Part shown: piece after piece, positions 10,580 to 61,794 of the stretch
How the letters are laid out: each line of letters starts with the position of its first letter
Position numbering within the stretch: position 1 is the stretch's first letter
Source: Candidatus Micrarchaeota archaeon
GTDB lineage: Archaea; Micrarchaeota; Micrarchaeia; Norongarragalinales; SBBD01
Direction of reading: 5' to 3'
NCBI GenBank assembly: GCA_018819225.1
Contig: JAHJQN010000004.1
Location: 273,715-337,714, forward strand
DNA: 64,000 nt
Notes under the pieces: model-generated
What the model saw: only the letters and a program-made list of their open reading frames with translations
Databases searched by the model: none
What the model was told of the DNA's origin: nothing
Program-made: the position numbers and the translations under genes

Positions 10580-13423
10580 TTACTCCATGTTTAAGTCGGG
10601 GAAGAAGGAATTCGGGGGTTCCGGAGGTTCCTCGATGATTTGAGACGGTCGCGTCGAAACATAAACCGCAATGACAACAATGAGGAGGATACCCAACAAC
10701 CAAATGTATGCATTGGAAGATGCTTTCGAGCTGCGTATGCGATTCAAAGCCACTTGAATTTTCTCTTTCGCACGTTCCCAAATCGATTGAGCTTCAACGG
10801 TTTTCCCTTGCTCTTCCAACTGTTGAGCTTGCAAAATCAATTGCTCAATCTCCTGCGTATCCTCGTTATTTTCATTCAATTCTTGAACCGCTTTCTTCAC
10901 GTCTTGATCATCCACTAAAGAAAACGGCATCCATTCCGTGGGCGTTACATACGGCGTCGGATGGATCAGTTGAGAACGGGGAGTCGGAGAACCCGCCATA
11001 GGAGGGCCGGTATAGTCTCCCGAATTTCCTCCGTTATAACTACCCCCGTTCGCATAGGGGGGCGGGCACTCCCCACAATCCGATTTACACGTACGACACG
11101 TTTCGCCCGCATCGGAATTGCATATTCCATCTCCACACGATGGTACGGGAGTCGGAGTCGCAGAACACGTACCCGTACAACACACTCCAAAACTGCAGAA
11201 CCCGCTTGAATCTGCAATGCATGAATCGTAATTGGCGCAATCGACAAGGCAGGTACCCCCTACGTCTTCACAAGAAGTCGGCAAGACCGGATCACCCAAA
11301 CCCGTAGGAACATAATCCAAATCCGATGTAAGCAACAAACGATCCAACCAGGTTCCATCCTCCCGGTTTCGAATCGTCAACGTATGCTCGCCAGCGGCCA
11401 ATGAAAATAACAAGGGATCAATGTCCGGATCGCGACTATTAGCAAGATCCCATACGTAAATCGTTCCATCCGCGGAAGGCGTGTCCCACGTGTACTCGGT
11501 CTGATCGTCCATGGTCACGTAAAAGCTGTTGGAAGCAGTGGAAGGCGATTTAACGCGTCCCCACAAATAAAAGTCTCCGAACCCCGGTATATAGAAATCG
11601 TACGAAATGGTTCCCACGTAATTGCCTTGATCTTCGGGAACAACCGCGTAATGCTCATTTGAAGACATCACATGTTCAACAATGTCCCAAACGCCGTCCG
11701 TTGAATCAAAATCTTCTCCTTCAATCCAAAGGAAAACATCGTCCCCGGACGGCGGTGGAGTCGGGGTAATTGTCGGAATCGGACAATCACCGGTACAACA
11801 AACACCTGAATCACAAAAACCATCCGTATCCAAGGTGCATAAATCATGATTCGAACATGCATCCAAACACTGACCGCCGATAGCCTCGCACGAATCCATG
11901 GGAGGCGGAGTCGGCGTCACCGTCGGAACCGTGCACGCTCCCACGCAGCATAAGCCCGAATCACAAAAGCCGTCTGGCTGCCAATTGCAATCATCGAAAT
12001 CATTGCAATTCAACAAACAACTTCCGCCAAAATCCCCGCACGGAACCTCCGCTCCGCTTCCTTCACAATACTCGAACGCCCCAATGTCCACTCGGCCATC
12101 ACACGAAGAAGGATAAGACGGATCGCCGGAATCGCGGGCGGGACTGTTAGGTAAAATATGGAAATCATCCGTCGACGCATCCACGAACAACGGATCCCCA
12201 CTCACGGAATGAGAATCGCGACCCGTAGCCATATACTCTTCCAACGTATTGTAATCCGTTCCCGCCACATGAATAAGCGCACCCGGAGTATCACGATAGT
12301 ATAAGTTGTAATCACTATCCAAATCATTGGTGCCATAATGACTATAATAAGCGGGCTGAGAACCACTGTAAAAAATATTATTTCGTTGCAGAAGTGTGGC
12401 GCCCGAACGTTGATAACTCTTCACCGCGGATAAATCATCCGTATAAATCGTATTACCCGTCATCACCAACGATTTCTGCCAAATAATTATTCCGAGACCG
12501 GTTGCATGACACACATTATCCACGAAATTGTCGGTCCAAGTCGGTTGGCTCACCGAAGCCGCTGAATGCGAATAGCATACTTGTGCATAAATCGTATTAT
12601 TACGCACCGTATTATCATGCGCAAGACTCATCACAGCGATTTCATTACTCCGAAACACATTCGCATTCAAATCATTATCAGTCGAATACTCCGGCCCACT
12701 GTGCCGTAAGCTGACGGACCACGACAAATCTCCGTCATTCGGAGGTAAATACGTCTGAGTAAACGAATTATTGAAAAACGTATTGAAATGCACACCCCCC
12801 AACTGAAGAATCTGCCCATTACTCCTCAGGAGCTTAACATCGTTAAATTGAAACGTATTATGATCACTTTTACTCATGAAAAAGATCATGTTGTTACCGG
12901 CCGGCGGATTCGAATCCTCTAAATAAAACGAATTACCGGAAATAAAATTCTCATCCGAACCGTCTTTTGAATTATACGCGTCTCCTAACACCAAACCCCC
13001 TGAAACCGCATTATTGATGAATCGATTACGGTCCGAATCGTATATTTCGATCGTGCCAAGAATATTTGATTTCAGCAGGCTATCATCGGTATACTGAAAT
13101 AACACACCTCCCTTTCCAGATCCTTTAATCAATTCCAGGTTCTGCACCGTCACATTCACTTGATGTTGACTTTTGATTCCATTCCCACTCACAAACGTAA
13201 TCCGCCTATGGTTTCCTTCCAAGATCACGTGATCCGCGTCGATTGTAATGCCGCCGGATGAAGACACCAAGTCAGATTCAAGCACATACAAGTGATTTGG
13301 AATGGAAATCGTATAGGGAACCGAGGTAATGCAAGTGGTGCCAGGATCGTTGCAGTTGTATGCAGAAGTCCAAGATACAAACAAGAGGAGGGATACGCCC
13401 CAAAATACACTTTGACGATTCAT
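10580..13423 (-). CDS. large secreted/surface protein: N-terminal beta-helix-like repeats, four 8-Cys modules, a ~150 aa shared domain, coiled coil and C-terminal TM anchor
   Basis: Signal peptide (MNRQSVFWGVSLLLFVSWTSA). Asn/Gly-rich repeats resemble a right-handed beta-helix. Modules CGDFGGSCLLNCNDFDDCNWQPDGFCDSGLCCVGAC, SCEAIGGQCLDACSNHDLCTLDTDGFCDSGVCCTGDC and SCEDVGGTCLVDCANYDSCIADSSGFCSFGVCCTGTC. The domain FLWIEGEDFDS...LLLTSDLDYVPTGLGDP is shared with the 58381-60468 protein. Pro/Thr linkers and a C-terminal TM segment. Confidence 0.7.
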   Translation of the reverse strand: MNRQSVFWGVSLLLFVSWTSAYNCNDPGTTCITSVPYTISIPNHLYVLESDLVSSSGGITIDADHVILEGNHRRITFVSGNGIKSQHQVNVTVQNLELIKGSGKGGVLFQYTDDSLLKSNILGTIEIYDSDRNRFINNAVSGGLVLGDAYNSKDGSDENFISGNSFYLEDSNPPAGNNMIFFMSKSDHNTFQFNDVKLLRSNGQILQLGGVHFNTFFNNSFTQTYLPPNDGDLSWSVSLRHSGPEYSTDNDLNANVFRSNEIAVMSLAHDNTVRNNTIYAQVCYSHSAASVSQPTWTDNFVDNVCHATGLGIIIWQKSLVMTGNTIYTDDLSAVKSYQRSGATLLQRNNIFYSGSQPAYYSHYGTNDLDSDYNLYYRDTPGALIHVAGTDYNTLEEYMATGRDSHSVSGDPLFVDASTDDFHILPNSPARDSGDPSYPSSCDGRVDIGAFEYCEGSGAEVPCGDFGGSCLLNCNDFDDCNWQPDGFCDSGLCCVGACTVPTVTPTPPPMDSCEAIGGQCLDACSNHDLCTLDTDGFCDSGVCCTGDCPIPTITPTPPPSGDDVFLWIEGEDFDSTDGVWDIVEHVMSSNEHYAVVPEDQGNYVGTISYDFYIPGFGDFYLWGRVKSPSTASNSFYVTMDDQTEYTWDTPSADGTIYVWDLANSRDPDIDPLLFSLAAGEHTLTIRNREDGTWLDRLLLTSDLDYVPTGLGDPVLPTSCEDVGGTCLVDCANYDSCIADSSGFCSFGVCCTGTCSATPTPVPSCGDGICNSDAGETCRTCKSDCGECPPPYANGGSYNGGNSGDYTGPPMAGSPTPRSQLIHPTPYVTPTEWMPFSLVDDQDVKKAVQELNENNEDTQEIEQLILQAQQLEEQGKTVEAQSIWERAKEKIQVALNRIRSSKASSNAYIWLLGILLIVVIAVYVSTRPSQIIEEPPEPPNSFFPDLNME

Positions 13424-13560
13424 GAATAAAATTTACCCGACGTGAGTATAAAAACGAAACGTATCAAGAACCTCATGCGGCGTGTTGGATTAGAGCCATT
13501 CAAGCAAACCTTTTCTTTTAAAAGAAAAGCCTTACCAAAAGAATATCGCAGTTCATAAGC

Positions 13561-13659
13561 GCCTCCGTAGCTCAGGGGTAGAGCGCCTGTCTTGTAGGGA
13601 TGGTTAGAAACGCGTTCCAAGAAAACAGGAGGTCGCGAGTTCAATTCTCGCCGGAGGCT
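13561..13659 (+). tRNA. tRNA-Thr(TGT) with 27-nt canonical (37/38) intron
   Basis: Hand fold: acceptor GCCTCCG/CGGAGGC, D arm GCTC-AGGGGTA-GAGC, anticodon stem CCTGT/ACAGG with loop CTTGTA|intron|A, T arm GCGAG-TTCAATT-CTCGC, discriminator T. Intron about 13597-13623. Confidence 0.8.
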
Positions 13660-13891
13660 TCCGGAAATAATTATTTTCTGTTTTTCTTTCTGGAACATGA
13701 CCTCGCCAGTTTGAGTGTGACCTTCGCCGGTTTGGCTCCAACCGTAATTGACTTGAATTCGACGCGTTGAATGAGAATTTCGTGTGCAACGCGTTTCCGC
13801 ACTGCGGGTACGCGACATCCTTTTCAATCGAACGCCATTTCCGCACAGGACTAAAAAACGGCTTTTGGGTTCGATGAGGGAAACCAGAAAC

Positions 13892-14713
13892 CTATGCCGT
13901 GTTCTGCACGCACGCGTAGTCCGCCTTGACTTCCTCAGGGGAGAGAGCGCGGCTATAGAGCACGACCTGGTCCACGTCGCCGATGTCAAATCCATCGAAC
14001 AGCACGTTGAACGGATAGTTCTCGTTGTGGTCGGGAATCCAGTCCGTTCCAGGGTATGCTTGCGTGGCATCTTGCATGCCGTCCAAGTATAAGGAAACGG
14101 TGTCGGCGTCAAAGTCATAGGTTAAGGCAATATGGTGCCATTGGTTGATTGAAATGACGGTATTTCCAACGAGAGCTGTTCCCGTCACTCCAACGATTGC
14201 GCCAGCGAGTTTCCCATCAACTGATCCGAGGATATACTCGTCCACGAGGGCGACAAAGCTTGCGCTCCCGCCGGCATGTGGTGCCAAGGGATGAATCCAT
14301 GCCTCTATTGTAAATGATCGTTCGTTGAGGTAGAGCGATTCGTCTCGAGGAACGTCCACTGAAGCGTAGTCGAATCCTGCCCCGGTTTCAAGGTGTATTC
14401 CGTTGCCGGATATCCCTGGAACCCAATAGGGGTTCGGCGCGTTCCCATGGACGGTCATCACGCCGTCGCTTCCGCCTGTCGAATCCTTGGCCGTCGCACC
14501 GACTCCTTCGTCGAACTTCCACCAGTGAGCCGGCCTTTCCCCCATATACGTCGGAAGGCACGTGAGGCTATTGAACACGCCGAGATTGCTTTCAATGCCC
14601 TGCTTTCCGGCAAAGAGCGTGCTCCTGAGAATGATAAACGTCAGGGCGACAATAAGCAGAACGCCTGCCACAAGCAGAACGTACTCAAAGGCACCCTGCC
14701 CGCGTTTCAGCAT
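13892..14713 (-). CDS. archaeal type IV pilin-like protein with LamG/concanavalin-like domain
   Basis: N-terminus KRGQGAFEYVLLVAGVLLIVAL is a class III (prepilin-type) signal. Downstream is a LamG-like jelly-roll pattern (TIEAWIHP...WHHIALTYD...LYLDG). Confidence 0.55.
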   Translation of the reverse strand: MLKRGQGAFEYVLLVAGVLLIVALTFIILRSTLFAGKQGIESNLGVFNSLTCLPTYMGERPAHWWKFDEGVGATAKDSTGGSDGVMTVHGNAPNPYWVPGISGNGIHLETGAGFDYASVDVPRDESLYLNERSFTIEAWIHPLAPHAGGSASFVALVDEYILGSVDGKLAGAIVGVTGTALVGNTVISINQWHHIALTYDFDADTVSLYLDGMQDATQAYPGTDWIPDHNENYPFNVLFDGFDIGDVDQVVLYSRALSPEEVKADYACVQNTA

Positions 14714-14863
14714 GCATTCGGTAATGGGTCAGACGCTTTTTATACTTAATCTCGCCAGTATGAGCTTTGTCAAGGAGAAAACCATCGAAAAAACAATAGA
14801 AAGAGTCAGATCCCGTGAAAGGGAGGCGGCTCATGTGAGCCGCCTAGAAAAAAGAAAAAAAGG

Positions 14864-16675
14864 TTATTTCTTCTTGCCGCTCTGCTGACTGTAATAGTAG
14901 TATCCCACTATGGCCACGAGAATCACAACGACAATGATCCAAATCGCGTAGTCAGGTCCAGCAGCTGCTGCCGGAGCAGCCGCCACCCCACCCGTTGAAG
15001 CGGGGCGTTGCGTCGGAATGGCCGTCGGCTTTACCCCATCATCTGCAGGAGTGGTTGCCGCTTTCGTCGAAGGCGCTTGGAACTCCTCCAATACGCTTTC
15101 ATCAACGCCCTTGCGGACCGTTACATCCGCTTTGAATTCCTGGTTCGCAGCCAAATTGACATCCCACACGGCGATCAGACTACCTTCTTCCACATGCGAA
15201 GGAGCCGGACTCAATGAAATGACTCCGCTCACGTAGTCCGCGTAATCGAAAGGCAATCGGAACGAAACCGTTCCACGGAAAGCGCTCGTGGGCTTGTACG
15301 ACAAGGTGAACGTGGCACGCGAGGCGCCAAACGATCCCTTAACGGATGCACCAGAGCCAATGGTCTTTGTCGACGAACTCAATTCAGGTTCTTCCTCGTC
15401 TTCAGGTTGAACCGAAGGAGCCGATGTCGGAACAGGCGTGGACGTCGAAGTCGAGCAGTCCGGATCCGTTCTTCGGGCGCGTACACATAACTCGTTGCAA
15501 CTTCCGTCGTCAGCACAAGAGGTGGAAAGACCCAAGCAATAGCCTGACGGACAATATGATCCAACCGGACATTGGGTATCCAACGTGCAAGTAACTCCGG
15601 AAGATCCTCCGGTAGGCGTCGGGGTTCCAGAAGACGTGCAGTTGCCAACCGTCATGATGGTTGCGTTGATCGCAAGAATGTGTTCAGAGTACACGGAGAT
15701 GTTGGCTTGACCCGTAGAAATACCGGTACCGTTAATGATCACGGCCGTCGTACCATTTCCAGAATAAACGGTAGCCACGTTCGTGTCATTGGAAGCCCAG
15801 TAAAACTCACCCGTCGTATTCGTATTACCTTGCGCGTCCAATCCATACGCCCCAATCGGCGTCGGAATCGAACAGCCCCCGATATTGAAATACGCTTGCG
15901 TGTTGTTAACGTATACCAAGGTAATATTGCCTGCAGTAACCGTTACAACCGTCGAGTTGGTCGCAGACGCGTTATCCGCATGGAACACCGTAATCAATGC
16001 CTGCCCCACCAACGTCCCGTTGACGGTCACCTCCAGCGAATTGTTACCAGCAGTCACTTCAGAAACCGTGGATGCGTTCGAAGACCAGTCCAAATTAGTC
16101 GTGCTGTTGACGTTACCATACTGGTCCAAAACAGATGCTAAAATGCGGCTGGAATTCCCTGCGGTAACATTTAACGCGGTAACGTTAACGTTTATGGAGT
16201 ACGCGTTGCCTGCCGTGGCCGTATACGTACCGGTACCACTATCCACGAGATCCGTACTCGGGGTGTCCGTCATGTTATAGGTATAAGCGGCAAGCGTGTG
16301 CAAACCGGTGGTCGTGTTAATAGTAATACCAGCAATCTCCAGCGACACATTCGTGTCTGCTGCAAAACTGGTGTTGGCGAAGTTGTAGGTCACGTTTTGG
16401 CCGCTTACGGCTACCGTACCCGAGCTGGGGATGGTAATTGTTGAAATTACGCTGGCACCGGAGACGGTATAACCAGTCGGGAATTCGACGGTAATGTTAG
16501 ACATATTCAAATGCGCGGTAGGTACGTCAAGCGTAATGTTGAACGCGACATCGCTCGTTCCAACAACCGTGGAGTTGGGGGTCACGTTCACGGCAGTCAA
16601 GGCTGCAGCCGAAGAAAATGAGGCGAGGGTGACTAGCATTAACGAAAACAAAAACACTTTGAACAATGGATTCAT
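14864..16675 (-). CDS. surface glycoprotein candidate (repeated Ig-like beta domains, many N-x-S/T sequons, C-terminal TM anchor)
   Basis: Signal peptide and Thr/Asn/Val-rich repeats with at least 30 NxT/NxS sequons. Cys-rich knot near residue 360, Pro/Thr linker, and a C-terminal WIIVVVILVAIVGYYYY + KKK anchor. Confidence 0.6.
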   Translation of the reverse strand: MNPLFKVFLFSLMLVTLASFSSAAALTAVNVTPNSTVVGTSDVAFNITLDVPTAHLNMSNITVEFPTGYTVSGASVISTITIPSSGTVAVSGQNVTYNFANTSFAADTNVSLEIAGITINTTTGLHTLAAYTYNMTDTPSTDLVDSGTGTYTATAGNAYSINVNVTALNVTAGNSSRILASVLDQYGNVNSTTNLDWSSNASTVSEVTAGNNSLEVTVNGTLVGQALITVFHADNASATNSTVVTVTAGNITLVYVNNTQAYFNIGGCSIPTPIGAYGLDAQGNTNTTGEFYWASNDTNVATVYSGNGTTAVIINGTGISTGQANISVYSEHILAINATIMTVGNCTSSGTPTPTGGSSGVTCTLDTQCPVGSYCPSGYCLGLSTSCADDGSCNELCVRARRTDPDCSTSTSTPVPTSAPSVQPEDEEEPELSSSTKTIGSGASVKGSFGASRATFTLSYKPTSAFRGTVSFRLPFDYADYVSGVISLSPAPSHVEEGSLIAVWDVNLAANQEFKADVTVRKGVDESVLEEFQAPSTKAATTPADDGVKPTAIPTQRPASTGGVAAAPAAAAGPDYAIWIIVVVILVAIVGYYYYSQQSGKKK

Positions 16676-16850
16676 AGTATAACATCACCTACGGATTGTT
16701 AGAGTGAGAAAGTGTCAAGGCCTATAAAAGCATTTGCATTGCAAATAGCAGGACGTGTAGCCTCCAACATCCCCGTCGAATAACCCATTCCATTAAACGC
16801 AATAGATTAAAATAGAGGTTAAATAGAAGAAGTTAAGAAGGTGATTACGA

Positions 16851-17081
16851 ATGGCGCGAATGATTATTCACGAGGCAAAAGGTCCCGTGGAACTCAGAGT
16901 AGGGAATGAAAGCAAGTGGATTTGTAAATGCGGTTTGTCCAAAAACACGCCGTACTGTGACGGATCGCATAAAAAGACGGCCGATGAACCCGAAGGAAAA
17001 GTATTCAAATACGCTGAGGATGGGACGAGGAAAGAAGTCTGGCAGGAAGGGAGTAACCGAAAAGCTATTGCAAGTGCTTGA
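16851..17081 (+). CDS. CDGSH iron-sulfur domain protein
   Basis: [16 protein letters not shown] matches the C-x-C-x2-S-x3-P-x-CDGSH signature. Confidence 0.7.
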
Positions 17082-17796
17082 CCTTCGGGAATTCTTTCAC
17101 GCCCACTTCTCGGTCAATAACGAAAGGAACCATGTCGCCCACTTGGCATTGCTCCATGATCGGGGAAACGAATTCCTTCTCCTTTTCGCTTCGCGTGACG
17201 TCGAATCCGGAAGCCAACGGTGAAAGCGAAGGCAGTACGATCAGCGTTTGATCGCGGTACTTCCCGCGCAGCAAGCACTTGAACTTGTGCGCCACGCCTA
17301 TTTCATCGCGTATGCTGACCGCGGGATGCACGTGACCGATGACCAGCGTGTGAAACGGTTTCCAGCGCCTGAAGCCCGGGTAATCGCTCAAAAGCCGGTG
17401 CCCGTGAACGAACAAATATCCGGATTCTTGATACGCGTCCACAAGCCTCATTTCCTGATCGCGAAGAATCTTTCCAAGAAACGCATCGTGATTTCCGCGG
17501 ACGAAAATCGTTTGAACGCGCTTGGACTTCAGAAACCGGAGCAACGACAACACTTCTTCCCACTCCTGTTGATGCGGACGCGAAAAATGGTGTTTCACGT
17601 CCCCATTGATCAGAACGCGCTTCGCATGCGTCGCGCGAAGCATATCGCGCAAAGCAACTTCCACTTCAGCATATTGAGAAACCGGGACGTGGATGCCTTG
17701 CGCTTGCAGTACCGCCTCGTATCCAAACTGCAGATCCGAAATCGCGAGCAGATCCATCTCCTCAAAAAAGACGCCCGCCTGTTGGAGAACCCGCAT
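17065..17796 (-). CDS. metallophosphoesterase (calcineurin-like)
   Basis: Motifs D-x-H...GDVKHH...GNHD...GHVH. Confidence 0.7.
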
Positions 17797-18180
17797 TCAG
17801 TGATCCACCTCCTTCACCAAAGCGCGCACGCGTTTCTCGAGTTCGTCGCGCGTTTGCCGATAGCTATCCAGACGGCCATACGGACAACCCACATCCCATT
17901 CCGCAACGTGGGAACCCTTCACTTCAAACCTCGCGCCGCCCATGACAATGACGTTATACGCGGCCGAAAGCAGGTGTGGAGTCAACCGGCGCGGGACGTG
18001 GGCACGAACATCCAACCCCCGTTCCTTCATCACGACAACCACTTCCGGTTTAATGGAGGAAGAGGGATCCATGCCCGCGCTCTCCGCACGCGAATGCCGA
18101 GCCCATTGATTGAAAAATGCCTCGGCCATCGGACTCCGAATCCCGTTATGCGAGCAAACGAATAAGACGATGCGTTTCTT
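17797..18180 (-). CDS. low-molecular-weight protein-tyrosine phosphatase / ArsC-like
   Basis: CSHNGIRSPMAEA is the P-loop C-x5-R(S/T) of the LMW-PTP/ArsC family. The start is probably MKKRIV. Confidence 0.65.
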   Translation of the reverse strand, partial: KKRIVLFVCSHNGIRSPMAEAFFNQWARHSRAESAGMDPSSSIKPEVVVVMKERGLDVRAHVPRRLTPHLLSAAYNVIVMGGARFEVKGSHVAEWDVGCPYGRLDSYRQTRDELEKRVRALVKEVDH

Positions 18181-20957
18181 CATCCCGTCCACCTCGGCCG
18201 TTTTCGGGGAAGGCGACGGCTCGGCTTCAACGGATTAAAGGGTTCCGGCGCCTCTTTTTTTCGCTCGGGTTCCAAATTCACGGGAGCCTCAGGCACGGAT
18301 TTACCCAATCGTTTGAGAACCAAAGAATGCAGGCGTTCAAGTATGGCGCGCCGATCCGCCAAGAGCACGACGTCGGAAATACCTTGCGTAATAAGCAATT
18401 GAGCAAACGGAGACGGAAGATCGTAAGGCTTCAGAATCGAAAGCTGCAATTCATTTTTGCGCAAGCGTTCCTGGATGACGCGCGCGTTGCGCAAATCCAT
18501 GTGGTCCTCCAAGATCTCGCGAAACGTTTCCTTCACGACCGGAAAATTCGCGAGACGGGACGAAATACCGAACAATACGTGCGCGCTCATCTGCATTTTG
18601 CCCACGGAACGCTTTCGCCCCATATAATTACGAAGAATCATGAACGAACGGACGGCCACATGCCGGAATTTTCGCCGCAATGTTTCCGTGCGTTGAATCG
18701 CCTCCATGGCCTCCTCATCCAAATGAAGCCGCGCAAACATAAACAGTTGTTTCTTGATATCCACGTGCACGGCCCGCGTACACGTGAGCACGAATCCGTT
18801 GTCATTAAAGGAGATGAGCACGTTGCGGTTGATTTCGTGCGAAATGCGCTTCGCAAGAATCTTGCTCAACACTTCGTTGACGCGCCTCCCGAACAACGCG
18901 TGAAAGATAAAATGCCTTCGCCCCTCGGACTGGAACTCCTCCACAATCAAGCGCTCGTCCGAATGAAATCCGTGAAAGCCCAAGAGCTTGAAAAACCCCA
19001 TTTGCTCCGCAAAATAATGGTAAATGGCTAGCGCCGCATTTTCATTGCACGAGCATTCCTTTCGAATATAGGCGAGCACCTCTGGTTGCCCCTTGTTTTG
19101 CATCGCCAACGCCAAGTTCCCCCGGAAACGGCCGATCGCGGACGCCAAATCAAACGAAAGCGGAAGCATTTCCGAAAACCATTGGGGAATCGTCGGTCGC
19201 ATCCCTCCCGCCTTGGAAACGTAACACTGCATGCCCCTCGCATACTCGAATTGATACGTCTTCCCGCCCAGAACAAAACGGTCTCCTTTCTTCAAACGCT
19301 CCAGAAAATCCTCTTCAATATTTCCAATATGCATGCCCGCCGGATGCAAATTCACGCGAACGGAAACCTCGTCGGGAATCGTTCCGATGTTGGTGCAATA
19401 AATGATGCGAACGAGTTTCCCGCGCTTTCCAAACGCGTTCTTCTCCTCGTCAAACCAAATTTTGCCATACACGCGATATTTTTCCAGCTGACCGAAACCC
19501 CCCGATAGAAATCTCAATACATTCAAGAAATCGTCGCGGGAAAGATTCCGATAACAATAACTTTGTTTCACGAGCTGAAACGCCTCTTCCACGTCCCACG
19601 GCTTCTCGATCGCCAACCCGACCACGTGCTGCGCCAATACATCCAACGCGTTCTGCGGAATCTGCACGCGGTCTATATGCCCTTTTTTCGCCTCGGAAAG
19701 CATCACACCCATTTCCACGACGTCATCCCGATCCAACGCGATGAGCTTGCTTTCCGAGACCTTGTAAATATCGTGACCGCTTCGACCCGTCCGTTGGAGC
19801 GCTCGCGCAACGCTCTTCGGCGAACCCACCTGCACCACCAAATCAATATACCCGATATCAATGCCCAACTCGAGCGACGTCGAACACACGACCGCTTTTA
19901 ACTCGCCGTTCTTCAAACGATTTTCCACTTTCTGCCGCTCCGAACGCGACAACGAGGAATGGTGCGCCTCCAAGCCCTCCCCGTACGTCCCCGGAAAATA
20001 GTTTTTCAAATGATGCACGATGCGCTCCGTTCCCGCCCGCGTGTTCGTGAAAATCAACGTCGTGCGATGCGATCGAATCAATTCATCCAGAATTTTATAC
20101 GAACGTTTTTGAAGCTGGTCTTGCGTCACGTACACGAGATCCGGAGACGGAGAAAGGAGTTCAATATCCATTTTTTTGGAGAATTGGGCGTTCACGATCG
20201 TGCAATCCCGACTACGACCGTCCTGGTAACCCACGAGAAATTCAGCGACGTCTTCGAGAGGGGCTATCGTCGCGCTTAAACCGATGCGTGAAAACGTTTT
20301 TTTATTCAAGCGCTGCAATCGCTCGATGCTCAACGACAAGTGAACGCCGCGCTTGGAATTGCATAGCTCATGGATCTCATCCACCACCATCCATTGAACG
20401 GCCTGAAAATTCTCGATGAATTTCGGGGACGCGAGAATGATGGCGAGCGACTCCGGGGTCGTAATCAAAATGTGAGGCGGTTTTTTAGCCATGCGCGCGC
20501 GCTCCGCCGGCGGGGTATCTCCCGAACGCATCGCCACGCGAACCCCGTGCGTTTTGCCCGTGGCTTGCTGGAAAGCCGCTTCCATTTCCTTCAACGGCGC
20601 ACTCAAGTTTTTCTCGATGTCGGCAGCCAAGGCGCGCAACGGCGAAACGTATACGCAGTACACGCGATCCTCCAACTTCTTTTTCTCCGCCAGTTGCACC
20701 AACTCGTTGAGAATGCTCAAGAAGGCCGTGAACGTTTTCCCGCTTCCCGTTGGCGCCGATATCAACGCGTTCTGGCGGTCGTGGATCAACGTTACGCCGT
20801 ACTGTTGAGGCAGCGTGATTTCCTTGAATTGGGAAAACCACTGGGCGACCGTAGGATGGAGCAGCTGCAAAAGCTCTTTTCGGGTAGACGCGTGATGGGC
20901 TTCCGTCAACAATTCGAATGACAACTCCTCCCGCGAAAAGCGGAAGCCAGATATCAT
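18180..20957 (-). CDS. lhr: Lhr-like ATP-dependent helicase (superfamily 2)
   Basis: Walker A APTGSGKTFTAF, DEIHEL box, HRTTLIFTNTR, QRTGRSGH; 925 aa with the long C-terminal Lhr-core extension. Confidence 0.85.
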   Translation of the reverse strand: MISGFRFSREELSFELLTEAHHASTRKELLQLLHPTVAQWFSQFKEITLPQQYGVTLIHDRQNALISAPTGSGKTFTAFLSILNELVQLAEKKKLEDRVYCVYVSPLRALAADIEKNLSAPLKEMEAAFQQATGKTHGVRVAMRSGDTPPAERARMAKKPPHILITTPESLAIILASPKFIENFQAVQWMVVDEIHELCNSKRGVHLSLSIERLQRLNKKTFSRIGLSATIAPLEDVAEFLVGYQDGRSRDCTIVNAQFSKKMDIELLSPSPDLVYVTQDQLQKRSYKILDELIRSHRTTLIFTNTRAGTERIVHHLKNYFPGTYGEGLEAHHSSLSRSERQKVENRLKNGELKAVVCSTSLELGIDIGYIDLVVQVGSPKSVARALQRTGRSGHDIYKVSESKLIALDRDDVVEMGVMLSEAKKGHIDRVQIPQNALDVLAQHVVGLAIEKPWDVEEAFQLVKQSYCYRNLSRDDFLNVLRFLSGGFGQLEKYRVYGKIWFDEEKNAFGKRGKLVRIIYCTNIGTIPDEVSVRVNLHPAGMHIGNIEEDFLERLKKGDRFVLGGKTYQFEYARGMQCYVSKAGGMRPTIPQWFSEMLPLSFDLASAIGRFRGNLALAMQNKGQPEVLAYIRKECSCNENAALAIYHYFAEQMGFFKLLGFHGFHSDERLIVEEFQSEGRRHFIFHALFGRRVNEVLSKILAKRISHEINRNVLISFNDNGFVLTCTRAVHVDIKKQLFMFARLHLDEEAMEAIQRTETLRRKFRHVAVRSFMILRNYMGRKRSVGKMQMSAHVLFGISSRLANFPVVKETFREILEDHMDLRNARVIQERLRKNELQLSILKPYDLPSPFAQLLITQGISDVVLLADRRAILERLHSLVLKRLGKSVPEAPVNLEPERKKEAPEPFNPLKPSRRLPRKRPRWTG

Positions 20958-21002
20958 GCTTATGAATAGATAAAAGCGTTGCGTTGAATACCCCGGTTTC
21001 TA

Positions 21003-22574: not shown

Positions 22575-22625
22575 GTGTAACTCATTCCGGCAGTCTATAA
22601 AAAGCTTACCTGCTTTAAACGATCG

Positions 22626-51064: not shown

Positions 51065-51179
51065 GGGCTCGTAGCTCAGCCGGCAGAGCGATCGGCTCTT
51101 AACCGATAGGTCGAGGGTTCGAAACCCGTTTTATTCCCGTGAAAAATAAAGCGCTTATGCGAAACTCCCTCCGAGCCCG
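51065..51179 (+). tRNA. tRNA-Lys(CTT) with ~42-nt intron in the T-loop region (non-canonical position ~59-61)
   Basis: GGGCTCG acceptor, anticodon stem ATCGG/CCGAT with loop CTCTTAA, T stem GAGGG + TTCGAAA, then 42 nt before CCCTC-CGAGCCC-G. CGAAAC is repeated at both junctions, so the exact splice sites are ambiguous. Confidence 0.6.
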
Positions 51180-51181
51180 CT

Positions 51182-55658: not shown

Positions 55659-55670
55659 CCATTTTCACGT

Positions 55671-58013: not shown

Positions 58014-58134
58014 ACTGGTTCACGAAAACTTCTGTAAAAGAAGAGAATACTGGTATGGCTACCAACGTTTTTAAAGGCTATTTTGTCCTAAGAAAGAGGT
58101 AGCTGCTTCTTTACCCCGATGGTTGATTTGACAT

Positions 58135-58295
58135 GCCTCCGTAGCTCAGTAGTAGAGACGGAACCTTTTCTTTTTTAATAGAAAAGCTTCACCAAAAGAA
58201 GAAGCGAATAAAAGCGCCTCCGTAGCTCAGTAGTAGAGCGCGAACCTTTTCTTTAATAAAGAAAAGCTTCACCAAAAGAAAGCGCGTATTCCCAT
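58135..58295 (+). repeat. two tandem ~80-nt units, each = tRNA-Thr 5' half (positions 1-25) + promoter-like spacer, preceding the intact tRNA-Thr(GGT)
   Basis: GCCTCCGTAGCTCAGTAGTAGAG(A/C)(C)G at 58135 and 58216. Each is followed by GAACCTTTTCTTT(TT)AATA(A)AGAAAAGCTTCACCAAAAGAA, which is homologous to the region upstream of tRNA-Thr(TGT) at 13507-13545. Confidence 0.6.
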
Positions 58296-58367
58296 GCCTC
58301 CGTAGCTCAGTAGTAGAGCGCTTCCTTGGTAAGGAAGAGGTCGCGGGTGCGATTCCCGCCGGAGGCT
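58296..58367 (+). tRNA. tRNA-Thr(GGT), intronless
   Basis: GCCTCCG-TA-GCTC-AGTAGTA-GAGC-G-CTTCC-TTGGTAA-GGAAG-AGGTC-GCGGG-TGCGATT-CCCGC-CGGAGGC-T. Confidence 0.85.
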
Positions 58368-58380
58368 TGAATTCTTTTTT

Positions 58381-60468
58381 TTAATTTCGTATCTTCTTGT
58401 GAATGACGCGTTTACGTTTGTCGTGGAAGAACCAAGCACTCGCTACAGCCACTGAAAAGAGTAGAATAAGCCAGACGCTGTTAGAGAAAAGACCTCGTTC
58501 CTCTTGACGACGTCGATATTCTTGTTCAGCCGCAAGATACCCTGACTCTCCCCGCAAAACGGTTTGTTTCGGAATCCCCACCATCAATGGACTGCCACCA
58601 GGAGGCCAGCGAGTCGGAACCGGTGAAGGAGTGACCGTGGATTCGGGCTCGCCCATTCCAGAAGGAACGTACTCCAGATCATTCGTTATCAACAGCTTGT
58701 CTAATTGCATTCCATCCTCACGGTTGCGAACCGTCAACGTATGGAAACCAGCGGAAAGATCAAACGCAAGAGGATCCAAAGGAGGAGAACGGCTGTTCGC
58801 GACATCCCACCGCCACACGTTGCCGCCCGCCGTATCCCAAATATATTCTGCACCGCCATCCATGCGAATGAACACGCTGTCTGCTGCCGTGTGAGGAGAC
58901 AATTCACGACCCCAAACGCGATATTCTCCTGAAACGGGAACCTCGAAAGAATAGGTCAAGAGGTCGGCGTCGCCGCCTGCATTGAACGGAACGAGCACGA
59001 ATTCGCCATTGGAAGCGTCTTCATCCACATCAATGACCCACGCTCCGAGCAAGGACGAAAAGTGTTCGGCCTCCACCCAATAATAGGAGTATCCCGGAAC
59101 AGCCGTAGGAGAACATGAACCCAAACAACATACGCCGGACCCGCAATACCCTTCATCCTCCAAGAAACAATCATCGTAGAAACCGCAGTTGGCGCGACAC
59201 GACCCACCCAATGCTTCGCAAGGAACGGGTGTCGGCGTGCTCGTGCACGATCCGATACAGCAGATTCCAGTCGAACAATAACCCTCGGCATCCCAAACGC
59301 ATTCATTGAATTGACTACAATCCTCTAAACATTGTCCGCCCAAATCCTCCTCGCAATAAATATCCGAGCCGCCGCCTTCAAAAGTCAGCGTGGCCTGGAT
59401 GAGATTGAAGGAATCGAACGATCCTTGTCCGGAAAACACGAGCCAAACCGTTTCTCCATTCGCGCTGATCCACTTGCTCGGAAAATTGTAAAAGAATGAA
59501 GGCTCGTAATCCCAAGAATCAAAAATGGCTACGGTATACCAGGGCCCCCAAGGATTCGGTGCCTCAAAAATAGACATGCCGCTACCTGAAACCCCGCCGT
59601 TGTCTCCCACGTGGTGATCGCCGACCAATAAGTACCTCCCCGAAGGAGAATGATACGTGACAACCGGAGGTGCCCAACCCACATTCTCTTTAATGAAAAC
59701 GGGTTGTCGGAGAGTCAAGTCATTCGTCCATTGGTTTAAACCAGTCGAGAATTCATACTGATCCCGATCCCAAATGAAATCTTTAGGAACGCGCATTAAA
59801 TCCACTTCCCCGGGAACCTGAACCTTGAGACCGGTAGCATCCTTCAACCGCGTCGCGTACATATACACGAATCCATCCGGCGACGCCGCATCCTCCCCGT
59901 ACTGCGAGATGCTGGGTAAAATCAATTCGTTTTCTTCAGTGAACATCCAATTGTTTTGAAGTTCCCAAGTTGCCCCATGATCGTACGAACGCGCCAGCCT
60001 CGCATTATCGTAATTCATATTATTGGAACCCGGACTGACCCACATGTATAATACGCCATCAATGGAAACGATCCCGTAAGACTTGCCGGTAAACGTAGCG
60101 GGATTTTCTGCAGCACACGAAGCAGGAGGCGCATGTTCTGGATTTTCGCAACTGCCGTCCCCCAACGCATGGCACCCCCATAAATTGACGGGCACGAAAT
60201 CGACGGCATCCCCTTCAATGCGAGTTAAACCCAAACTAGCGCGACAAAGGGTATTGGATCCTTCAAAACCGCCTCCGTCACCCCAACTCGTGTATTGATG
60301 ACCGTCATCCGCCCAAGTCATCGGAAAATTATCGCTTCCTGAAGCGGCATTGAAATAGGTCGCAGGATTAAACGAGATGTCGGTAATGACGGTGCTTGAC
60401 GGATACGCCACGTTCAGCGAAAGAAAACATATGAAAAAAACAAGAAAGGTACGGAATGCCCCTCGCAT
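58381..60468 (-). CDS. large secreted/surface protein: N-terminal glycoside-hydrolase-like/beta-propeller-like region, two 8-Cys modules, shared ~150 aa domain, C-terminal TM anchor
   Basis: Signal peptide. Modules CEEDLGGQCLEDCSQFNECVWDAEGYCSTGICCIGSC and PCEALGGSCRANCGFYDDCFLEDEGYCGSGVCCLGSC. The domain YYWVEAEHFSS...LLITNDLEYVPSGMGEP is paralogous to 10580-13423. C-terminal TM. Confidence 0.7.
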   Translation of the reverse strand: MRGAFRTFLVFFICFLSLNVAYPSSTVITDISFNPATYFNAASGSDNFPMTWADDGHQYTSWGDGGGFEGSNTLCRASLGLTRIEGDAVDFVPVNLWGCHALGDGSCENPEHAPPASCAAENPATFTGKSYGIVSIDGVLYMWVSPGSNNMNYDNARLARSYDHGATWELQNNWMFTEENELILPSISQYGEDAASPDGFVYMYATRLKDATGLKVQVPGEVDLMRVPKDFIWDRDQYEFSTGLNQWTNDLTLRQPVFIKENVGWAPPVVTYHSPSGRYLLVGDHHVGDNGGVSGSGMSIFEAPNPWGPWYTVAIFDSWDYEPSFFYNFPSKWISANGETVWLVFSGQGSFDSFNLIQATLTFEGGGSDIYCEEDLGGQCLEDCSQFNECVWDAEGYCSTGICCIGSCTSTPTPVPCEALGGSCRANCGFYDDCFLEDEGYCGSGVCCLGSCSPTAVPGYSYYWVEAEHFSSLLGAWVIDVDEDASNGEFVLVPFNAGGDADLLTYSFEVPVSGEYRVWGRELSPHTAADSVFIRMDGGAEYIWDTAGGNVWRWDVANSRSPPLDPLAFDLSAGFHTLTVRNREDGMQLDKLLITNDLEYVPSGMGEPESTVTPSPVPTRWPPGGSPLMVGIPKQTVLRGESGYLAAEQEYRRRQEERGLFSNSVWLILLFSVAVASAWFFHDKRKRVIHKKIRN

Positions 60469-60510
60469 GGAACCACCTATTTCTTACTAGTCTTCCTCGG
60501 TTTTAATAAG

Positions 60511-60556
60511 TGCGGGCTTTGCACCTTTTGGGCGAGCCACGCCGGAGGCTTACGGA
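60511..60556. repeat. direct repeat A containing a tRNA-Thr 3'-end-like core (CGCCGGAGGCTTACGGAAA)
   Basis: GTGCGGGCTTTGCACCTTTTGGGCGAGCCACGCCGGAGGCTTACGG; 42 of 46 nt identical to repeat B. The core matches the tRNA-Thr(TGT) 3' end + flank (CGCCGGAGGCTTCCGGAAA). Confidence 0.55.
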
Positions 60557-61023: not shown

Positions 61024-61101
61024 TCTAAGTCCCTTACAACAGCAGTAAAACGAGCTTTATAATACTTGCTAGACACGAGCGCCATTGGATTTGTCTCGAG
61101 G

Positions 61102-61147
61102 TACGGGCTTTGCACCTTTTGGCCGAGTCCCTCCGGAGGCTTCCGGA
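61102..61147. repeat. direct repeat B containing a tRNA-Thr 3'-end-like core (CTCCGGAGGCTTCCGGA)
   Basis: GTACGGGCTTTGCACCTTTTGGCCGAGTCCCTCCGGAGGCTTCCGG. Confidence 0.55.
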
Positions 61148-61728: not shown

Positions 61729-61775
61729 CGGAATCGGTTTAAGCGAACGAATGGATGGGGGTATATCGTTTGAAT

Positions 61776-61794
61776 GAGTCCGGCCGGAGGCTCT
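61776..61794. repeat. direct repeat C (GAGTCCGGCCGGAGGCTCT), partial tRNA-Thr 3'-end-like core
   Basis: Shares GAGTCC..CCGGAGGCT with repeat B. Confidence 0.4.

What the first reader, a model, noticed from the sequence alone, without database searches (positions are those of the whole stretch)
10580..13423. Two paralogous giant surface proteins, each beside a tRNA-Thr gene, sharing a ~150 aa domain
ORFs 10580-13423 (947 aa) and 58381-60468 (695 aa) have different N-terminal regions. One has beta-helix-like Asn/Gly repeats and the other a glycoside-hydrolase-like or propeller-like region. Both then carry the same module set: 8-Cys modules flanking a conserved domain (FLWIEGEDFDS...YVWDLANSRDPDIDPLLFSLAAGEHTLTIRNREDGTWLDRLLLTSDLDYVPTG vs YYWVEAEHFSS...WRWDVANSRSPPLDPLAFDLSAGFHTLTVRNREDGMQLDKLLITNDLEYVPSG, about 45% identity), followed by a C-terminal TM anchor. 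Each gene sits directly next to a tRNA-Thr gene (TGT at 13561, GGT at 58296). This suggests module shuffling or duplication mediated by tRNA-Thr-associated recombination. I cannot assign the shared domain to a known family; it may be a carbohydrate-binding beta-sandwich.
Basis: seen in the sequence. Interest (0 to 1): 0.6.

Follow-up and report, generated by a model that had tools for sequence, protein, structure and literature searches.

The report
Two modular archaeal surface glycan-binding proteins
Two membrane-anchored surface proteins of a Micrarchaeota archaeon share an old duplicated block, made of small cysteine-rich modules and a sugar-binding domain of a common known fold; one of the two genes lies in a small insertion at a tRNA-Thr gene, and the overall picture is fairly ordinary.

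Summary
ORF A (10580-13423, 947 aa) and ORF B (58381-60468, 695 aa) share about 260 aa at 46% identity (E=6e-71). The block is two 8-Cys modules plus a ~150-aa domain. Both have a signal peptide and a C-terminal TM anchor, and each lies beside a tRNA-Thr gene (137 nt and 13 nt away).

B's N-terminus is a DUF4185 (GH183-type) domain. A's is probably a parallel beta-helix. Both look like modular, surface-anchored glycan-binding or glycan-cleaving proteins of a Candidatus Micrarchaeota MAG.

The duplication is old (57% nt identity) and the shared block carries no tRNA-linked mark.

Gene B is the first of three cassettes (the other two are ParE toxin-antitoxin pairs). Each cassette ends in a direct repeat of the tRNA-Thr 3' end, the usual scar of integration at a tRNA gene. 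No integrase was found. Gene A has no such mark.

The 8-Cys module has no detectable relatives.

Verdict: new members of known kinds, modest interest.

The parts
10580..13423 (-). Gene A, 947 aa. Signal peptide, parallel beta-helix-like N-terminal region, two Cys8 modules, CBM6/35-like domain, a third Cys8 module, a 6-Cys motif, an acidic helical stalk and a C-terminal TM anchor. NCBI MBU1197568.1, 'hypothetical protein', Candidatus Micrarchaeota archaeon.
12068..13318 (-). A aa ~36-452: parallel beta-helix-like region. At least 7 xNx[FIV]xxNx[FIV] (PbH1-type) repeat cores and a C-terminal cap.
   Evidence: Repeat cores. PDB 9rx2 'parallel beta-helix repeat protein' E=0.0016. DUF5123 E=0.0047. 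choice-of-anchor Q E=0.0072. All matches are weak and no structure was modelled.
11783..12040 (-). A Cys8 modules 1 and 2 (aa 462-497 and 512-547), joined by a Pro/Thr linker.
11288..11749 (-). A aa 559-712: shared CBM6/CBM35-like (GH115_C-type) beta-sandwich domain.
11066..11272 (-). A Cys8 module 3 (aa 718-753) and the 6-Cys motif CGDGICNSDAGETCRTCKSDCGEC (aa 763-786).
10649..10717 (-). A C-terminal transmembrane anchor (aa ~903-925).
   Evidence: Hydropathy.
13561..13659 (+). tRNA-Thr(TGT) with an intron of about 27 nt after the anticodon. Lies 137 nt from A's start codon, in divergent orientation.
   Evidence: Rfam 61.1 bits. Missed by ARAGORN.
13507..13560 (+). Conserved 54-nt upstream region of tRNA-Thr, containing the palindrome CTTTTCTTTTAAAAGAAAAG. 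About 80% identical to the units upstream of tRNA-Thr(GGT).
58381..60468 (-). Gene B, 695 aa. Signal peptide, DUF4185 (GH183-family) domain, two Cys8 modules, CBM6/35-like domain, linker and a C-terminal TM anchor. NCBI MBU1197620.1, 'DUF4185 domain-containing protein'.
59380..60396 (-). B aa ~25-363: DUF4185 domain.
   Evidence: Pfam PF13810 38.7 bits against a cut-off of 39.5. 274 homologues at 40-51% identity, most of those listed carrying PF13810. Invariant D46, D64 and D198.
59113..59355 (-). B Cys8 modules 1 and 2 (aa 372-408 and 417-452).
58645..59103 (-). B aa 456-608: shared CBM6/CBM35-like (GH115_C-type) beta-sandwich domain.
58414..58482 (-). B C-terminal transmembrane anchor (aa ~663-685).
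58296..58367 (+). tRNA-Thr(GGT). Its 3' end lies 13 nt from B's stop codon, in convergent orientation. Probable attachment site of the cassette array.
58131..58321 (+). Tandem repeat, period 80, 2.4 copies. The unit is the first 26 nt of tRNA-Thr(GGT) plus the 54-nt promoter-like upstream region. This leaves two orphan 5' tRNA fragments at 58135-58160 and 58216-58241.
60510..60556 (+). att-like repeat 1. A 47-nt unit that ends in a copy of the tRNA-Thr 3' end (GAGCCACGCCGGAGGCT) followed by TACGGA. Right boundary of cassette E1 (58368-60550), which holds gene B alone.
61101..61147 (+). att-like repeat 2, 87% identical to repeat 1. Right boundary of cassette E2 (60551-61141), which holds ParE toxin 60581-60823(-) and a 64-aa partner 60829-61023(-).
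61769..61792 (+). att-like repeat 3 (…GAGTCCGGCCGGAGGCT). Right boundary of cassette E3 (61142-61792), which holds a DUF2683 antitoxin 61224-61454(+) and ParE toxin 61462-61728(+). The array ends here, just before corA.

Best explanation
**What the proteins are.** A and B are two type-I membrane-anchored, extracellular, modular carbohydrate-active-type proteins of a Candidatus Micrarchaeota (DPANN) archaeon.

**Domain layout.**
- Each has a different N-terminal 'working' domain. A carries a right-handed parallel beta-helix of the kind found in polysaccharide lyases, glycosidases and depolymerases. B carries a DUF4185 domain, the family that CAZy calls GH183 (endo-D-arabinofuranases).
- Each then carries the same cassette: two small four-disulfide (8-Cys) modules on Pro/Thr linkers, followed by a CBM6/CBM35-like beta-sandwich of the Pfam GH115_C type.
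- Each ends in a stalk and a single C-terminal transmembrane helix.

**Likely mechanism (inferred).** The beta-sandwich binds a glycan and holds the N-terminal domain on its polysaccharide substrate. That substrate could be on a host or neighbouring cell envelope, or in biofilm matrix. The disulfide-rich modules and linkers act as rigid spacers.

**Origin of the shared cassette.** It arose by an old intragenomic or intra-lineage duplication and domain shuffling, as is usual for modular carbohydrate-active enzymes. tRNA-mediated recombination is not needed to explain it.

**The tRNA neighbourhood differs for the two genes.**
- Gene B is the sole gene of the first of three short cassettes inserted at the 3' end of tRNA-Thr(GGT). 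Each cassette ends in a direct repeat of the tRNA 3' end, so B was probably captured by site-specific integration.
- Gene A's position beside the promoter side of tRNA-Thr(TGT) shows no recombination scar and is most simply coincidence.

**Shown versus inferred.**
- Shown: homology, fold, domain family, repeats and topology signals.
- Inferred: glycan binding, catalysis, surface role and integration history.
For: **Paralogy.** 46% identity over 260 aa, E=6e-71. The two domains are reciprocal best hits.

**Fold of the shared domain.**
- AlphaFold2 model, mean pLDDT 95.8, pTM 0.90.
- Foldseek top hits are CBM35, CBM6 and GH115 C-terminal domains.
- A sequence profile finds CBM35 2wz8 as its best PDB hit (E=0.008), with CBM6 chains below it at E 0.16-0.29, not significant.

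**Family of the shared domain.**
- 7561 representative proteins at E<=1e-3, often with 2-6 tandem copies.
- 9 of 10 relatives pass the Pfam GH115_C gathering threshold.
- 29 of 38 isolated domains match GH115_C.
- In GH115 enzymes this domain lines the xylan-binding cleft (PMC3879575).

**B's N-terminus.**
- 274 homologues at 40-51% identity; most of those listed carry PF13810. Some are fused to dockerin, CBM60 or PA14.
- D46, D64 and D198 are invariant.
- DUF4185 is GH183, an endo-D-arabinofuranase family with a catalytic Asp pair (PMC10115798).

**A's N-terminus.** PbH1-type repeats and a parallel beta-helix cap match.

**Topology.**

**Organism.**

**Age of the duplication.** 57% nt identity and no converted tract.

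**Cassette array at tRNA-Thr(GGT).**
- Five in-register + strand copies of the 17-mer, against 0.09 expected.
- All copies are intergenic and lie at cassette boundaries.
- A shared 47-nt arm is present in repeats 1 and 2.
- The array stops before corA.
- Integration at tRNA genes typically leaves a complete and a partial tRNA copy at the two ends of the element (PMC9897764).
Against: **Weak family scores.**
- The window domains score below the GH115_C gathering threshold (13.3-18 bits against 24.1).
- B is 0.8 bit below the DUF4185 threshold.

**Untested function.**
- No ligand-binding or catalytic residue could be checked against a characterised member. No solved GH183-like structure was detectable by sequence.
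- A's beta-helix rests on weak matches and motifs only. It was not modelled.

**Weaknesses of the integration reading.**
- No integrase lies in the window or in the 7 kb beyond it.
- The cassette array is compositionally typical of the genome.
- No strain lacking the cassettes could be found.
- The integration reading therefore rests on the repeats alone.

**Residual coincidence.** Two paralogues both adjacent to tRNA-Thr genes remains an a-posteriori coincidence. From this window I estimate its chance at roughly 0.3-1%.
Confidence: 0.7

Rival explanations
1. Recombination associated with tRNA-Thr genes (integration, excision, or homologous exchange between the two tRNA-Thr loci) duplicated or shuffled the Cys8-CBM cassette. 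Under this model both genes lie next to tRNA-Thr for a single mechanistic reason.
For: - Both genes abut tRNA-Thr genes.
- The two tRNA loci share an 80%-identical 54-nt upstream region plus the tRNA 5' part.
- The tRNA-Thr(GGT) locus is visibly recombinogenic. It has an 80-bp tandem repeat on its 5' side and three att-like repeats on its 3' side.
- The att-like cores at 60542 and 61133 match the 3' end plus trailer of the other tRNA, tRNA-Thr(TGT) (CCGGAGGCTTCCGGA), with 1 and 0 mismatches.
Against: - The shared block is old: 48% aa and 57% nt identity, with no high-identity tract.
- It lies about 1.5 kb from one tRNA, on that tRNA's promoter side, and about 0.3 kb from the other, on its 3' side.
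- No tRNA fragment or att-like repeat flanks gene A.
- The 44.7 kb between the tRNAs is core housekeeping DNA.
- Relatives of the domain and of B are not near tRNAs: 0 of 18 and 0 of 3 loci.
Confidence: 0.1
2. Neither tRNA adjacency means anything. The tRNA-end repeats downstream of tRNA-Thr(GGT) are relics of local tandem duplication of the tRNA gene, like the 80-bp repeat on its 5' side, with later insertions between the copies. They are not scars of integrase-mediated capture, and gene B is native.
For: - There is no integrase in or near the window.
- The array has typical GC and tetranucleotide composition.
- The same tRNA shows plain tandem duplication on its 5' side.
- The repeats are short, 17-24 nt of tRNA-like sequence.
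Against: - The repeats lie exactly at the boundaries of self-contained units: one gene, then two complete toxin-antitoxin pairs. All are intergenic and in the same orientation.
- Two of them share a further 30-nt non-tRNA arm, as expected for the arm of an element's attachment site.
- Toxin-antitoxin pairs are typical cargo of inserted elements. This last point rests on general knowledge.
Confidence: 0.15
3. A rival on function. The two proteins are non-catalytic adhesins. Their beta-helix, beta-propeller and beta-sandwich domains serve only to attach the episymbiotic archaeon to its host's glycosylated surface.
For: - The organism is a DPANN (Micrarchaeota) archaeon. Many DPANN archaea live attached to hosts; this rests on general knowledge.
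- Gene A lies across the tRNA from other surface genes: a LamG pilin-like protein with a class III signal peptide, a 603-aa anchored protein, and further off a FlaI-type ATPase.
- No catalytic residue was verified in A.
Against: - B's domain keeps three invariant Asp residues across 22 family members. Two of them are 134 residues apart, close to the 132-residue spacing of the catalytic pair reported for Rv3707c.
- B's closest relatives are typical secreted bacterial enzymes with dockerin or CBM60.
Confidence: 0.25

Closest known systems
[quoted passage not shown]
   Same: - The N-terminal W-x-E-A-E strand is conserved in the family alignment; I recall a similar motif from CBM6/35 sequences.
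- Most relatives pass the GH115_C threshold.
- The domain occurs in multi-domain extracellular proteins, often in tandem.
   Different: - Only 12-19% identity to solved CBMs.
- The window copies fall below the Pfam threshold.
- No GH115 catalytic domain is attached.
- The family motif WGR…DSFF…REDGxxLD is not one I know to have been characterised.
- The ligand is unknown.
DUF4185 / GH183 endo-D-arabinofuranases (Al-Jourani et al. 2023, PMC10115798)
   Same: - B's N-terminal 340 aa belong to the DUF4185 family.
- Invariant Asp residues are present.
- The NCBI name is the same.
   Different: - The host is archaeal, and the protein is membrane-anchored with a Cys8-CBM tail.
- It belongs to a divergent subfamily, at the edge of the Pfam threshold.
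- Its substrate is unknown. D-arabinan is a cell-wall polymer of Mycobacteriales and is not an obvious substrate here.
Genetic elements integrated at tRNA genes, flanked by a complete and a partial tRNA copy (PMC9897764; Williams 2002 and Reiter et al. 1989, as cited there)
   Same: Direct repeats of the tRNA 3' end bound the inserted DNA immediately downstream of an intact tRNA gene. Serial repeats suggest repeated use of the site.
   Different: - The cassettes are tiny (2183, 591 and 651 bp).
- None carries an integrase.
- The tRNA-like part of the repeats is only 17-24 nt.
- The same tRNA also has tandem 5' fragments.
Integron gene-cassette arrays
   Same: An array of short cassettes, including toxin-antitoxin pairs, each ending in a conserved recombination-site-like repeat.
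   Different: - No intI gene is present.
- The repeats do not fold into attC-like hairpins: z-scores run from -0.7 to +0.45.
- Cassette orientations are mixed.
- The array is anchored on a tRNA gene.

Membership tests
Pfam PF17829 GH115_C (beta-sandwich) | Score at or above the Pfam gathering threshold (24.1 bits) | tested here: not met
   A scores 13.3 bits as a full protein and 18.0 as an isolated domain. B scores 17.9 bits. By contrast, 9 of 10 close full-length relatives pass, and 29 of 38 isolated domains match at E<=0.01. Membership is therefore transitive rather than direct.
Pfam PF17829 GH115_C (beta-sandwich) | Beta-sandwich fold superposable on the GH115 C-terminal domain | tested here: met
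   [not shown]
Pfam PF17829 GH115_C (beta-sandwich) | Located C-terminal to a GH115 catalytic TIM barrel | tested here: not met
   No GH115 catalytic domain is present in A or B.
CAZy CBM6 / CBM35 | Significant sequence similarity to family members (Pfam CBM_6 or a CAZy family profile) | tested here: not met
   Neither window protein matches CBM_6, and only 1 of 38 relatives does. A profile search against the PDB gives CBM35 2wz8 at E=0.008 and CBM6 at E=0.16-0.3.
CAZy CBM6 / CBM35 | Beta-jelly-roll fold of the family | tested here: met
   [not shown]
CAZy CBM6 / CBM35 | Demonstrated carbohydrate binding, with conserved ligand and Ca2+ site residues | not testable with these tools
DUF4185 / GH183 | Match to PF13810 at the gathering threshold (39.5 bits) | tested here: inconclusive
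   B scores 38.7 bits, E=9.3e-10, covering only aa 139-315. However, 274 homologues at 40-51% identity cover about 98% of the domain and most of those listed carry PF13810. NCBI names B a DUF4185 protein.
DUF4185 / GH183 | Catalytic Asp pair (D56/D188 in Rv3707c, PMC10115798) | tested here: inconclusive
   D46, D64 and D198 are invariant in 22 sequences. The D64-D198 spacing of 134 is close to 132. No direct alignment to a characterised enzyme was possible.
DUF4185 / GH183 | Endo-D-arabinofuranase activity | not testable with these tools
   This needs a biochemical assay.
Right-handed parallel beta-helix (PbH1 repeats), for A's N-terminus | Repeated PbH1-type coils and a beta-helix fold | tested here: inconclusive
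   At least 7 xNx[FIV]xxNx[FIV] cores lie 16-36 aa apart. The cap region matches PDB 9rx2 at E=0.0016 and DUF5123 at E=0.0047.
tRNA-targeted integrated element | Direct repeat of part of the target tRNA at the distal end of the insert | tested here: met
   The 17-mer has copies at 60534, 61125 and 61776, all on the + strand, with 1-2 mismatches. Five copies were found against 0.09 expected. The copies are in register.
tRNA-targeted integrated element | Integrase (tyrosine or serine recombinase) gene in the element | tested here: not met
   No recombinase domain occurs in any ORF scanned in the window or in the 7 kb beyond it.
tRNA-targeted integrated element | Presence/absence polymorphism, or atypical composition | tested here: not met
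   All contigs that carry corA or B show the same arrangement. GC is 0.493 against 0.504±0.013, and the tetranucleotide distance is low.
Integron | intI integrase and attC sites that fold as imperfect hairpins | tested here: not met
   No intI gene is present. The repeats fold no better than shuffled sequence.

The most novel reading that the evidence does not exclude
Two things are not excluded.

1. **The 36-aa 8-Cys unit may be a new domain family.** Its pattern is C-x6-C-x3-C-x5-C-x7-C-x4-CC-x3-C. It may be a previously undescribed four-disulfide domain confined to this archaeal lineage.
2. **The array at tRNA-Thr(GGT) may be a cassette-capture system.** The array consists of integrase-less mini-cassettes (one surface-protein gene and two toxin-antitoxin pairs). 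Each ends in a 47-nt site that mimics a tRNA-Thr 3' end plus trailer. It could be an integron-like system in DPANN archaea that uses a tRNA end as its attachment site, served by a recombinase encoded elsewhere in the genome. Such a system could move surface-protein genes between related cells.
Probability: 0.1. Interest if true: 0.6.

Novelty: new member of a known kind. Interest (0 to 1): 0.3.

Why it matters
- **Function.** DPANN archaea depend on other cells, and their surface proteins are the likely tools of that contact. These two proteins suggest that a Micrarchaeota archaeon displays bacterial-type glycan-binding and probably glycan-cleaving modules on its membrane. This gives concrete candidates for binding or cell-envelope-processing experiments.
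- **Annotation.** A 'hypothetical protein' and its shared domain can now be labelled. The domain is CBM6/35-like of the GH115_C type, in a family of thousands that the source databases mostly leave unnamed.
- **Genome dynamics.** The tRNA-Thr(GGT) cassette array is a small, clean example of gene capture at a tRNA gene in an ultrasmall archaeon.
- **Overall.** None of this overturns current understanding.

Tried and rejected
**Searches that found nothing.**
1. A word-index homology search with the 154-aa domain alone found nothing. A search with the Cys8 alignment also found nothing. The index needs shared 5-mers, and it did not return the window's own proteins either. The exhaustive HMMER search showed that the domain family is in fact large.
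2. The Cys8 module has no significant Pfam match (best is Disintegrin at E=0.0075, below threshold). It has no meaningful PDB match. It occurs in none of the 276 fetched proteins. A metagenome pattern scan gave 182 pattern matches, none confirmed.
3. A custom degenerate DNA pattern for AG.HTLT.RNREDG..LD found nothing in metagenome contigs.
4. No viral contig carries the att-like site.
5. Look-ups with corA and B returned only the same arrangement, so no empty site was found.

**Runs that were uninformative or failed.**
6. The first AlphaFold run used only 2 sequences and gave pLDDT 55, which is unusable. It was replaced by the 38-sequence run.
7. The search for related loci with the 38-sequence alignment failed because no stretch was conserved enough. 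With the 2-sequence alignment it returned only distant PVC-bacterial loci at 24-29% identity.
8. The afdb50 fold library was unavailable.

**Ideas tested and rejected.**
9. An integron reading of the cassette array is rejected. There is no intI gene and no attC-like folding.
10. The idea that the 44.7 kb between the two tRNA-Thr genes is a mobile element flanked by them is rejected. It carries aIF2-beta, TruD, PurD, PurH, RNR, topoisomerase VI, HisRS and glutamine synthetase, and the two tRNAs are different isoacceptors.
11. The idea that the orphan 5' tRNA fragments are halves of split tRNAs was considered and not pursued. No matching orphan 3' halves with anticodon arms occur in the window. 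The 3' copies are only 17-24 nt and lie at cassette boundaries.

Full report
**1. Check of the observation**

- Both ORFs exist exactly as reported: 10580-13423(-) of 947 aa (A) and 58381-60468(-) of 695 aa (B).
- BLASTP aligns A454-712 with B364-608 at 46% identity over 260 aa, E=6e-71. tblastn finds no third copy in the window.
- The aligned block is two 8-Cys modules plus a domain of about 150 aa.
- The module pattern C-x6(7)-C-x3-C-x5-C-x7-C-x4-CC-x3-C occurs three times in A (aa 462, 512, 718) and twice in B (aa 372, 417). The modules therefore flank the domain only in A.
- A also has a 6-Cys motif at aa 763-786.
- Both proteins start with a hydrophobic signal-like segment. Each ends with a single strongly hydrophobic segment followed by a short charged tail.
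- At 947 and 695 aa they are not 'giant'.
- tRNA-Thr(GGT) at 58296-58367(+) is found by ARAGORN and Rfam.
- tRNA-Thr(TGT) at 13561-13659(+) is missed by ARAGORN because it carries an intron of about 27 nt. Rfam scores it at 61.1 bits, and the alignment shows the UGU anticodon.
- A's start codon is 137 nt from the 5' end of its tRNA (divergent). B's stop codon is 13 nt from the 3' end of its tRNA (convergent).

**2. Source organism**

- Both proteins are already in NCBI. A is MBU1197568.1, 'hypothetical protein KJ765_03565'. B is MBU1197620.1, 'DUF4185 domain-containing protein'. Both are assigned to Candidatus Micrarchaeota archaeon.
- They lie on a 709,457-bp metagenomic contig.
- The window content fits an archaeon. 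It holds a FlaI-type ATPase, an Lhr-type helicase and a class III signal-peptide pilin. It also holds aIF2-beta, topoisomerase VI, a tRNA-splicing endonuclease and intron-bearing tRNAs.

**3. The shared domain**

*Size of the family.*
- An exhaustive HMMER search of 1.84 billion representative proteins, using a profile of the two copies, found 7561 proteins at E<=1e-3 and 2619 at E<=1e-10. Most of the top 150 carry 2-6 tandem copies.

*Pfam assignment.*
- The window proteins themselves reach only 13-18 bits against Pfam GH115_C, whose cut-off is 24.1.
- Nine of ten close relatives pass that cut-off.
- 29 of 38 isolated domain instances match at E<=0.01.

*Structure.*
- With a 38-sequence alignment, AlphaFold2 gives a twelve-strand all-beta model with mean pLDDT 95.8 and pTM 0.90.
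- Foldseek against the PDB is led by CBM35, CBM6 and GH115 C-terminal domains.
- A sequence profile finds CBM35 2wz8 as its best PDB hit (E=0.008); CBM6 chains follow at E 0.16-0.29, which is not significant.

*Function of the known relatives.*
- In GH115 enzymes this beta-sandwich lines the xylan-binding cleft and is required for activity (PMC3879575).

*Conclusion.*
- The domain is a divergent member of a common, already described beta-jelly-roll family.
- Named relatives are bacterial: Desulfosarcina, Desulfobacteraceae, Omnitrophota, Rhodothermaceae, Bacteroidota and PVC phyla.

**4. The N-terminal domains**

*Protein B.*
- B25-363 has 274 homologues at 40-51% identity over about 98% of its length. 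Most of those listed are annotated PF13810.
- Most are stand-alone proteins of 350-400 aa. Some are fused to dockerin, CBM60 or PA14.
- In a 22-sequence alignment D46, D64 and D198 are invariant.
- DUF4185 is CAZy GH183, a family of retaining endo-D-arabinofuranases with a catalytic Asp pair, D56/D188 in Rv3707c (PMC10115798).
- The D64-D198 spacing of 134 residues is close to the 132 of Rv3707c. I could not align B directly to a characterised enzyme.

*Protein A.*
- A36-452 has at least seven PbH1-type xNx[FIV]xxNx[FIV] cores.
- Its C-terminal cap matches a solved 'parallel beta-helix repeat protein' at E=0.0016.
- It also matches DUF5123 and choice-of-anchor Q weakly.
- This supports a beta-helix but does not prove it.

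**5. The 8-Cys module**

No relative was found by any route. The module is short, so absence of hits is weak evidence. It is still the only element of the proteins that cannot be assigned.

**6. Paralogy and its age**

- The two domains are reciprocal best hits among 338 domain instances: 145 bits and 47.7% identity, against 107 and 130 bits for the next best.
- Together with the unique Cys8 modules, this makes [Cys8-Cys8-CBM] a shared derived cassette.
- At the DNA level the cassette is 57% identical, and only 59 of 120 identical residues use the same codon. No window shows recent conversion.
- The duplication is old.

**7. The tRNA question**

*Against a common tRNA-mediated origin.*
- The geometry differs at the two loci.
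- The only DNA at 80% identity or more between the two loci is the tRNA 5' part with its 54-nt upstream region, the tRNA 3' end, and 45 nt inside the domain.
- The 44.7 kb between the tRNAs is housekeeping DNA.
- None of 18 genome loci with the domain, and none of 3 loci of B's closest relatives, has a tRNA within 4 kb.

*A real signal at B.*
- The 3'-terminal 17-mer of tRNA-Thr recurs three more times, always on the + strand and always intergenic, at 60534-60550, 61125-61141 and 61776-61792.
- In all there are five copies against 0.09 expected, and none of 100 shuffles reaches that number.
- The copies are in register with the tRNA end, at spacings of 2183, 591 and 651 bp.
- They cut the DNA between the tRNA and corA into three self-contained units:
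  - gene B alone;
  - a ParE toxin with a 64-aa partner;
  - a DUF2683 antitoxin with a ParE toxin.
- The first two repeats share a 47-nt unit at 87% identity. It includes a 19-mer found nowhere else in the window.
- Their cores (CCGGAGGCTT[AC]CGGA) match the 3' end plus trailer of the other tRNA, tRNA-Thr(TGT).
- The array stops before corA.
- This is the classical scar of insertion at a tRNA gene, which leaves one complete and one partial tRNA copy at the two ends (PMC9897764). Here it has been used serially.

*Caveats.*
- No integrase lies in the window or in the next 7 kb.
- The repeats do not fold like integron attC sites.
- The array has typical composition.
- No empty site was found.

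*Gene A.*
- No tRNA fragment or att-like repeat flanks gene A.

**8. Mechanism and verdict**

- The best-supported reading is that A and B are membrane-anchored, extracellular, modular carbohydrate-active-type proteins.
- A CBM6/35-like module on disulfide-rich spacers would target a beta-helix domain (A) or a GH183-family domain (B) to a glycan on a host envelope, a neighbouring cell or biofilm matrix.
- The cassette spread by old domain duplication and shuffling.
- B was later fixed in, or arrived through, a tRNA-Thr integration hot spot. A's position beside a tRNA is most simply chance.
- Homology, fold, family, repeats and topology signals are shown. Binding, catalysis, location and insertion history are inferred.
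- Novelty: new members of known kinds. Interest is modest at 0.3. The unassigned Cys8 module and the integrase-less cassette array are the only points that could lead to something new.

Noticed in passing
window 58131-58321: Tandem repeat of period 80, 2.4 copies, 83% matches. The unit is the first 26 nt of tRNA-Thr(GGT) plus its 54-nt promoter-like upstream region. It leaves two orphan 5' tRNA fragments (58135-58160 and 58216-58241) directly upstream of the intact gene. Origin and function are unknown; slippage, unequal crossing-over or att relics are possible.
   Followed up: partly
window 13510-13530, 58165-58186, 58245-58266, 57693-57726: AT-rich palindromes of the type CTTTTCTTT(N2-4)AAAGAAAAG lie about 41 nt upstream of both tRNA-Thr genes. 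A similar one lies downstream of the L40e-like gene. They could be TATA/BRE regions, bidirectional T-run terminators or protein-binding sites.
   Followed up: partly
window ~51065-51180 (+): tRNA-Lys(CUU) found by Rfam only as a partial match (51072-51129, 37.1 bits). Reading the sequence, the 3' strand of its T stem and acceptor stem (…CCCTCCGAGCCCG) lies about 40 nt further on. This implies an intron at a non-canonical position in the T arm. ARAGORN misses it.
   Followed up: partly
window 2701-3864 (+): A 387-aa tRNA-splicing endonuclease with two N-terminal and two catalytic domain matches, i.e. a fused multi-unit EndA. This fits the canonical and non-canonical tRNA introns seen in the window. 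From memory, a multi-unit EndA with broad specificity has been described for ARMAN archaea.
   Followed up: no
window 55018-57461: Two paralogous two-gene toxin-antitoxin-like pairs (55018-55311 with 55254-55658, and 57186-57461 with 56833-57189). The toxins share the motif YxRKYGIxNL…RxxY. The pairs flank a Fic/DOC gene (55783-56724). With the two ParE cassettes, this makes the surroundings of tRNA-Thr(GGT) rich in toxin-antitoxin genes.
   Followed up: partly
window 13892-22691: Genes for surface and pilus components lie on the other side of tRNA-Thr(TGT) from gene A. They are a class III signal-peptide protein with a LamG domain (13892-14713), a 603-aa Thr/Asn-rich protein with a different Cys-rich segment and a C-terminal anchor (14864-16675), and a FlaI-type ATPase (21003-22691).
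   Followed up: partly
window 13420-14118 (-): A 232-aa ORF overlaps tRNA-Thr(TGT) and the intergenic region. It is almost certainly spurious.
   Followed up: no
L024 2046-3647 (beyond the window end, about window 67300-68900): Adjacent JAB/MPN-domain and UQ_con (ubiquitin-conjugating E2-like) genes with small neighbouring ORFs. This may be a ubiquitin-like modification system in this archaeon.
   Followed up: no
window 10580-13423: Gene A is compositionally atypical. Its GC3 is 0.479 against 0.585±0.054 for 33 genes, its beta-helix part has GC 0.442, and its tetranucleotide distance is 0.288 against 0.177±0.026. The tRNA-linked cassette array that contains B is not atypical overall, although B's GC3 (0.514) is about 1.3 sd low.
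   Followed up: partly
L022/L023 4001-5725: One of B's closest relatives, a DUF4185-CBM60-dockerin protein, lies between the ribosomal protein S7 gene and the EF-G gene in a bacterium that has a fused rpoB-rpoC gene (2332 aa). This is an unusual insertion into the str operon.
   Followed up: no
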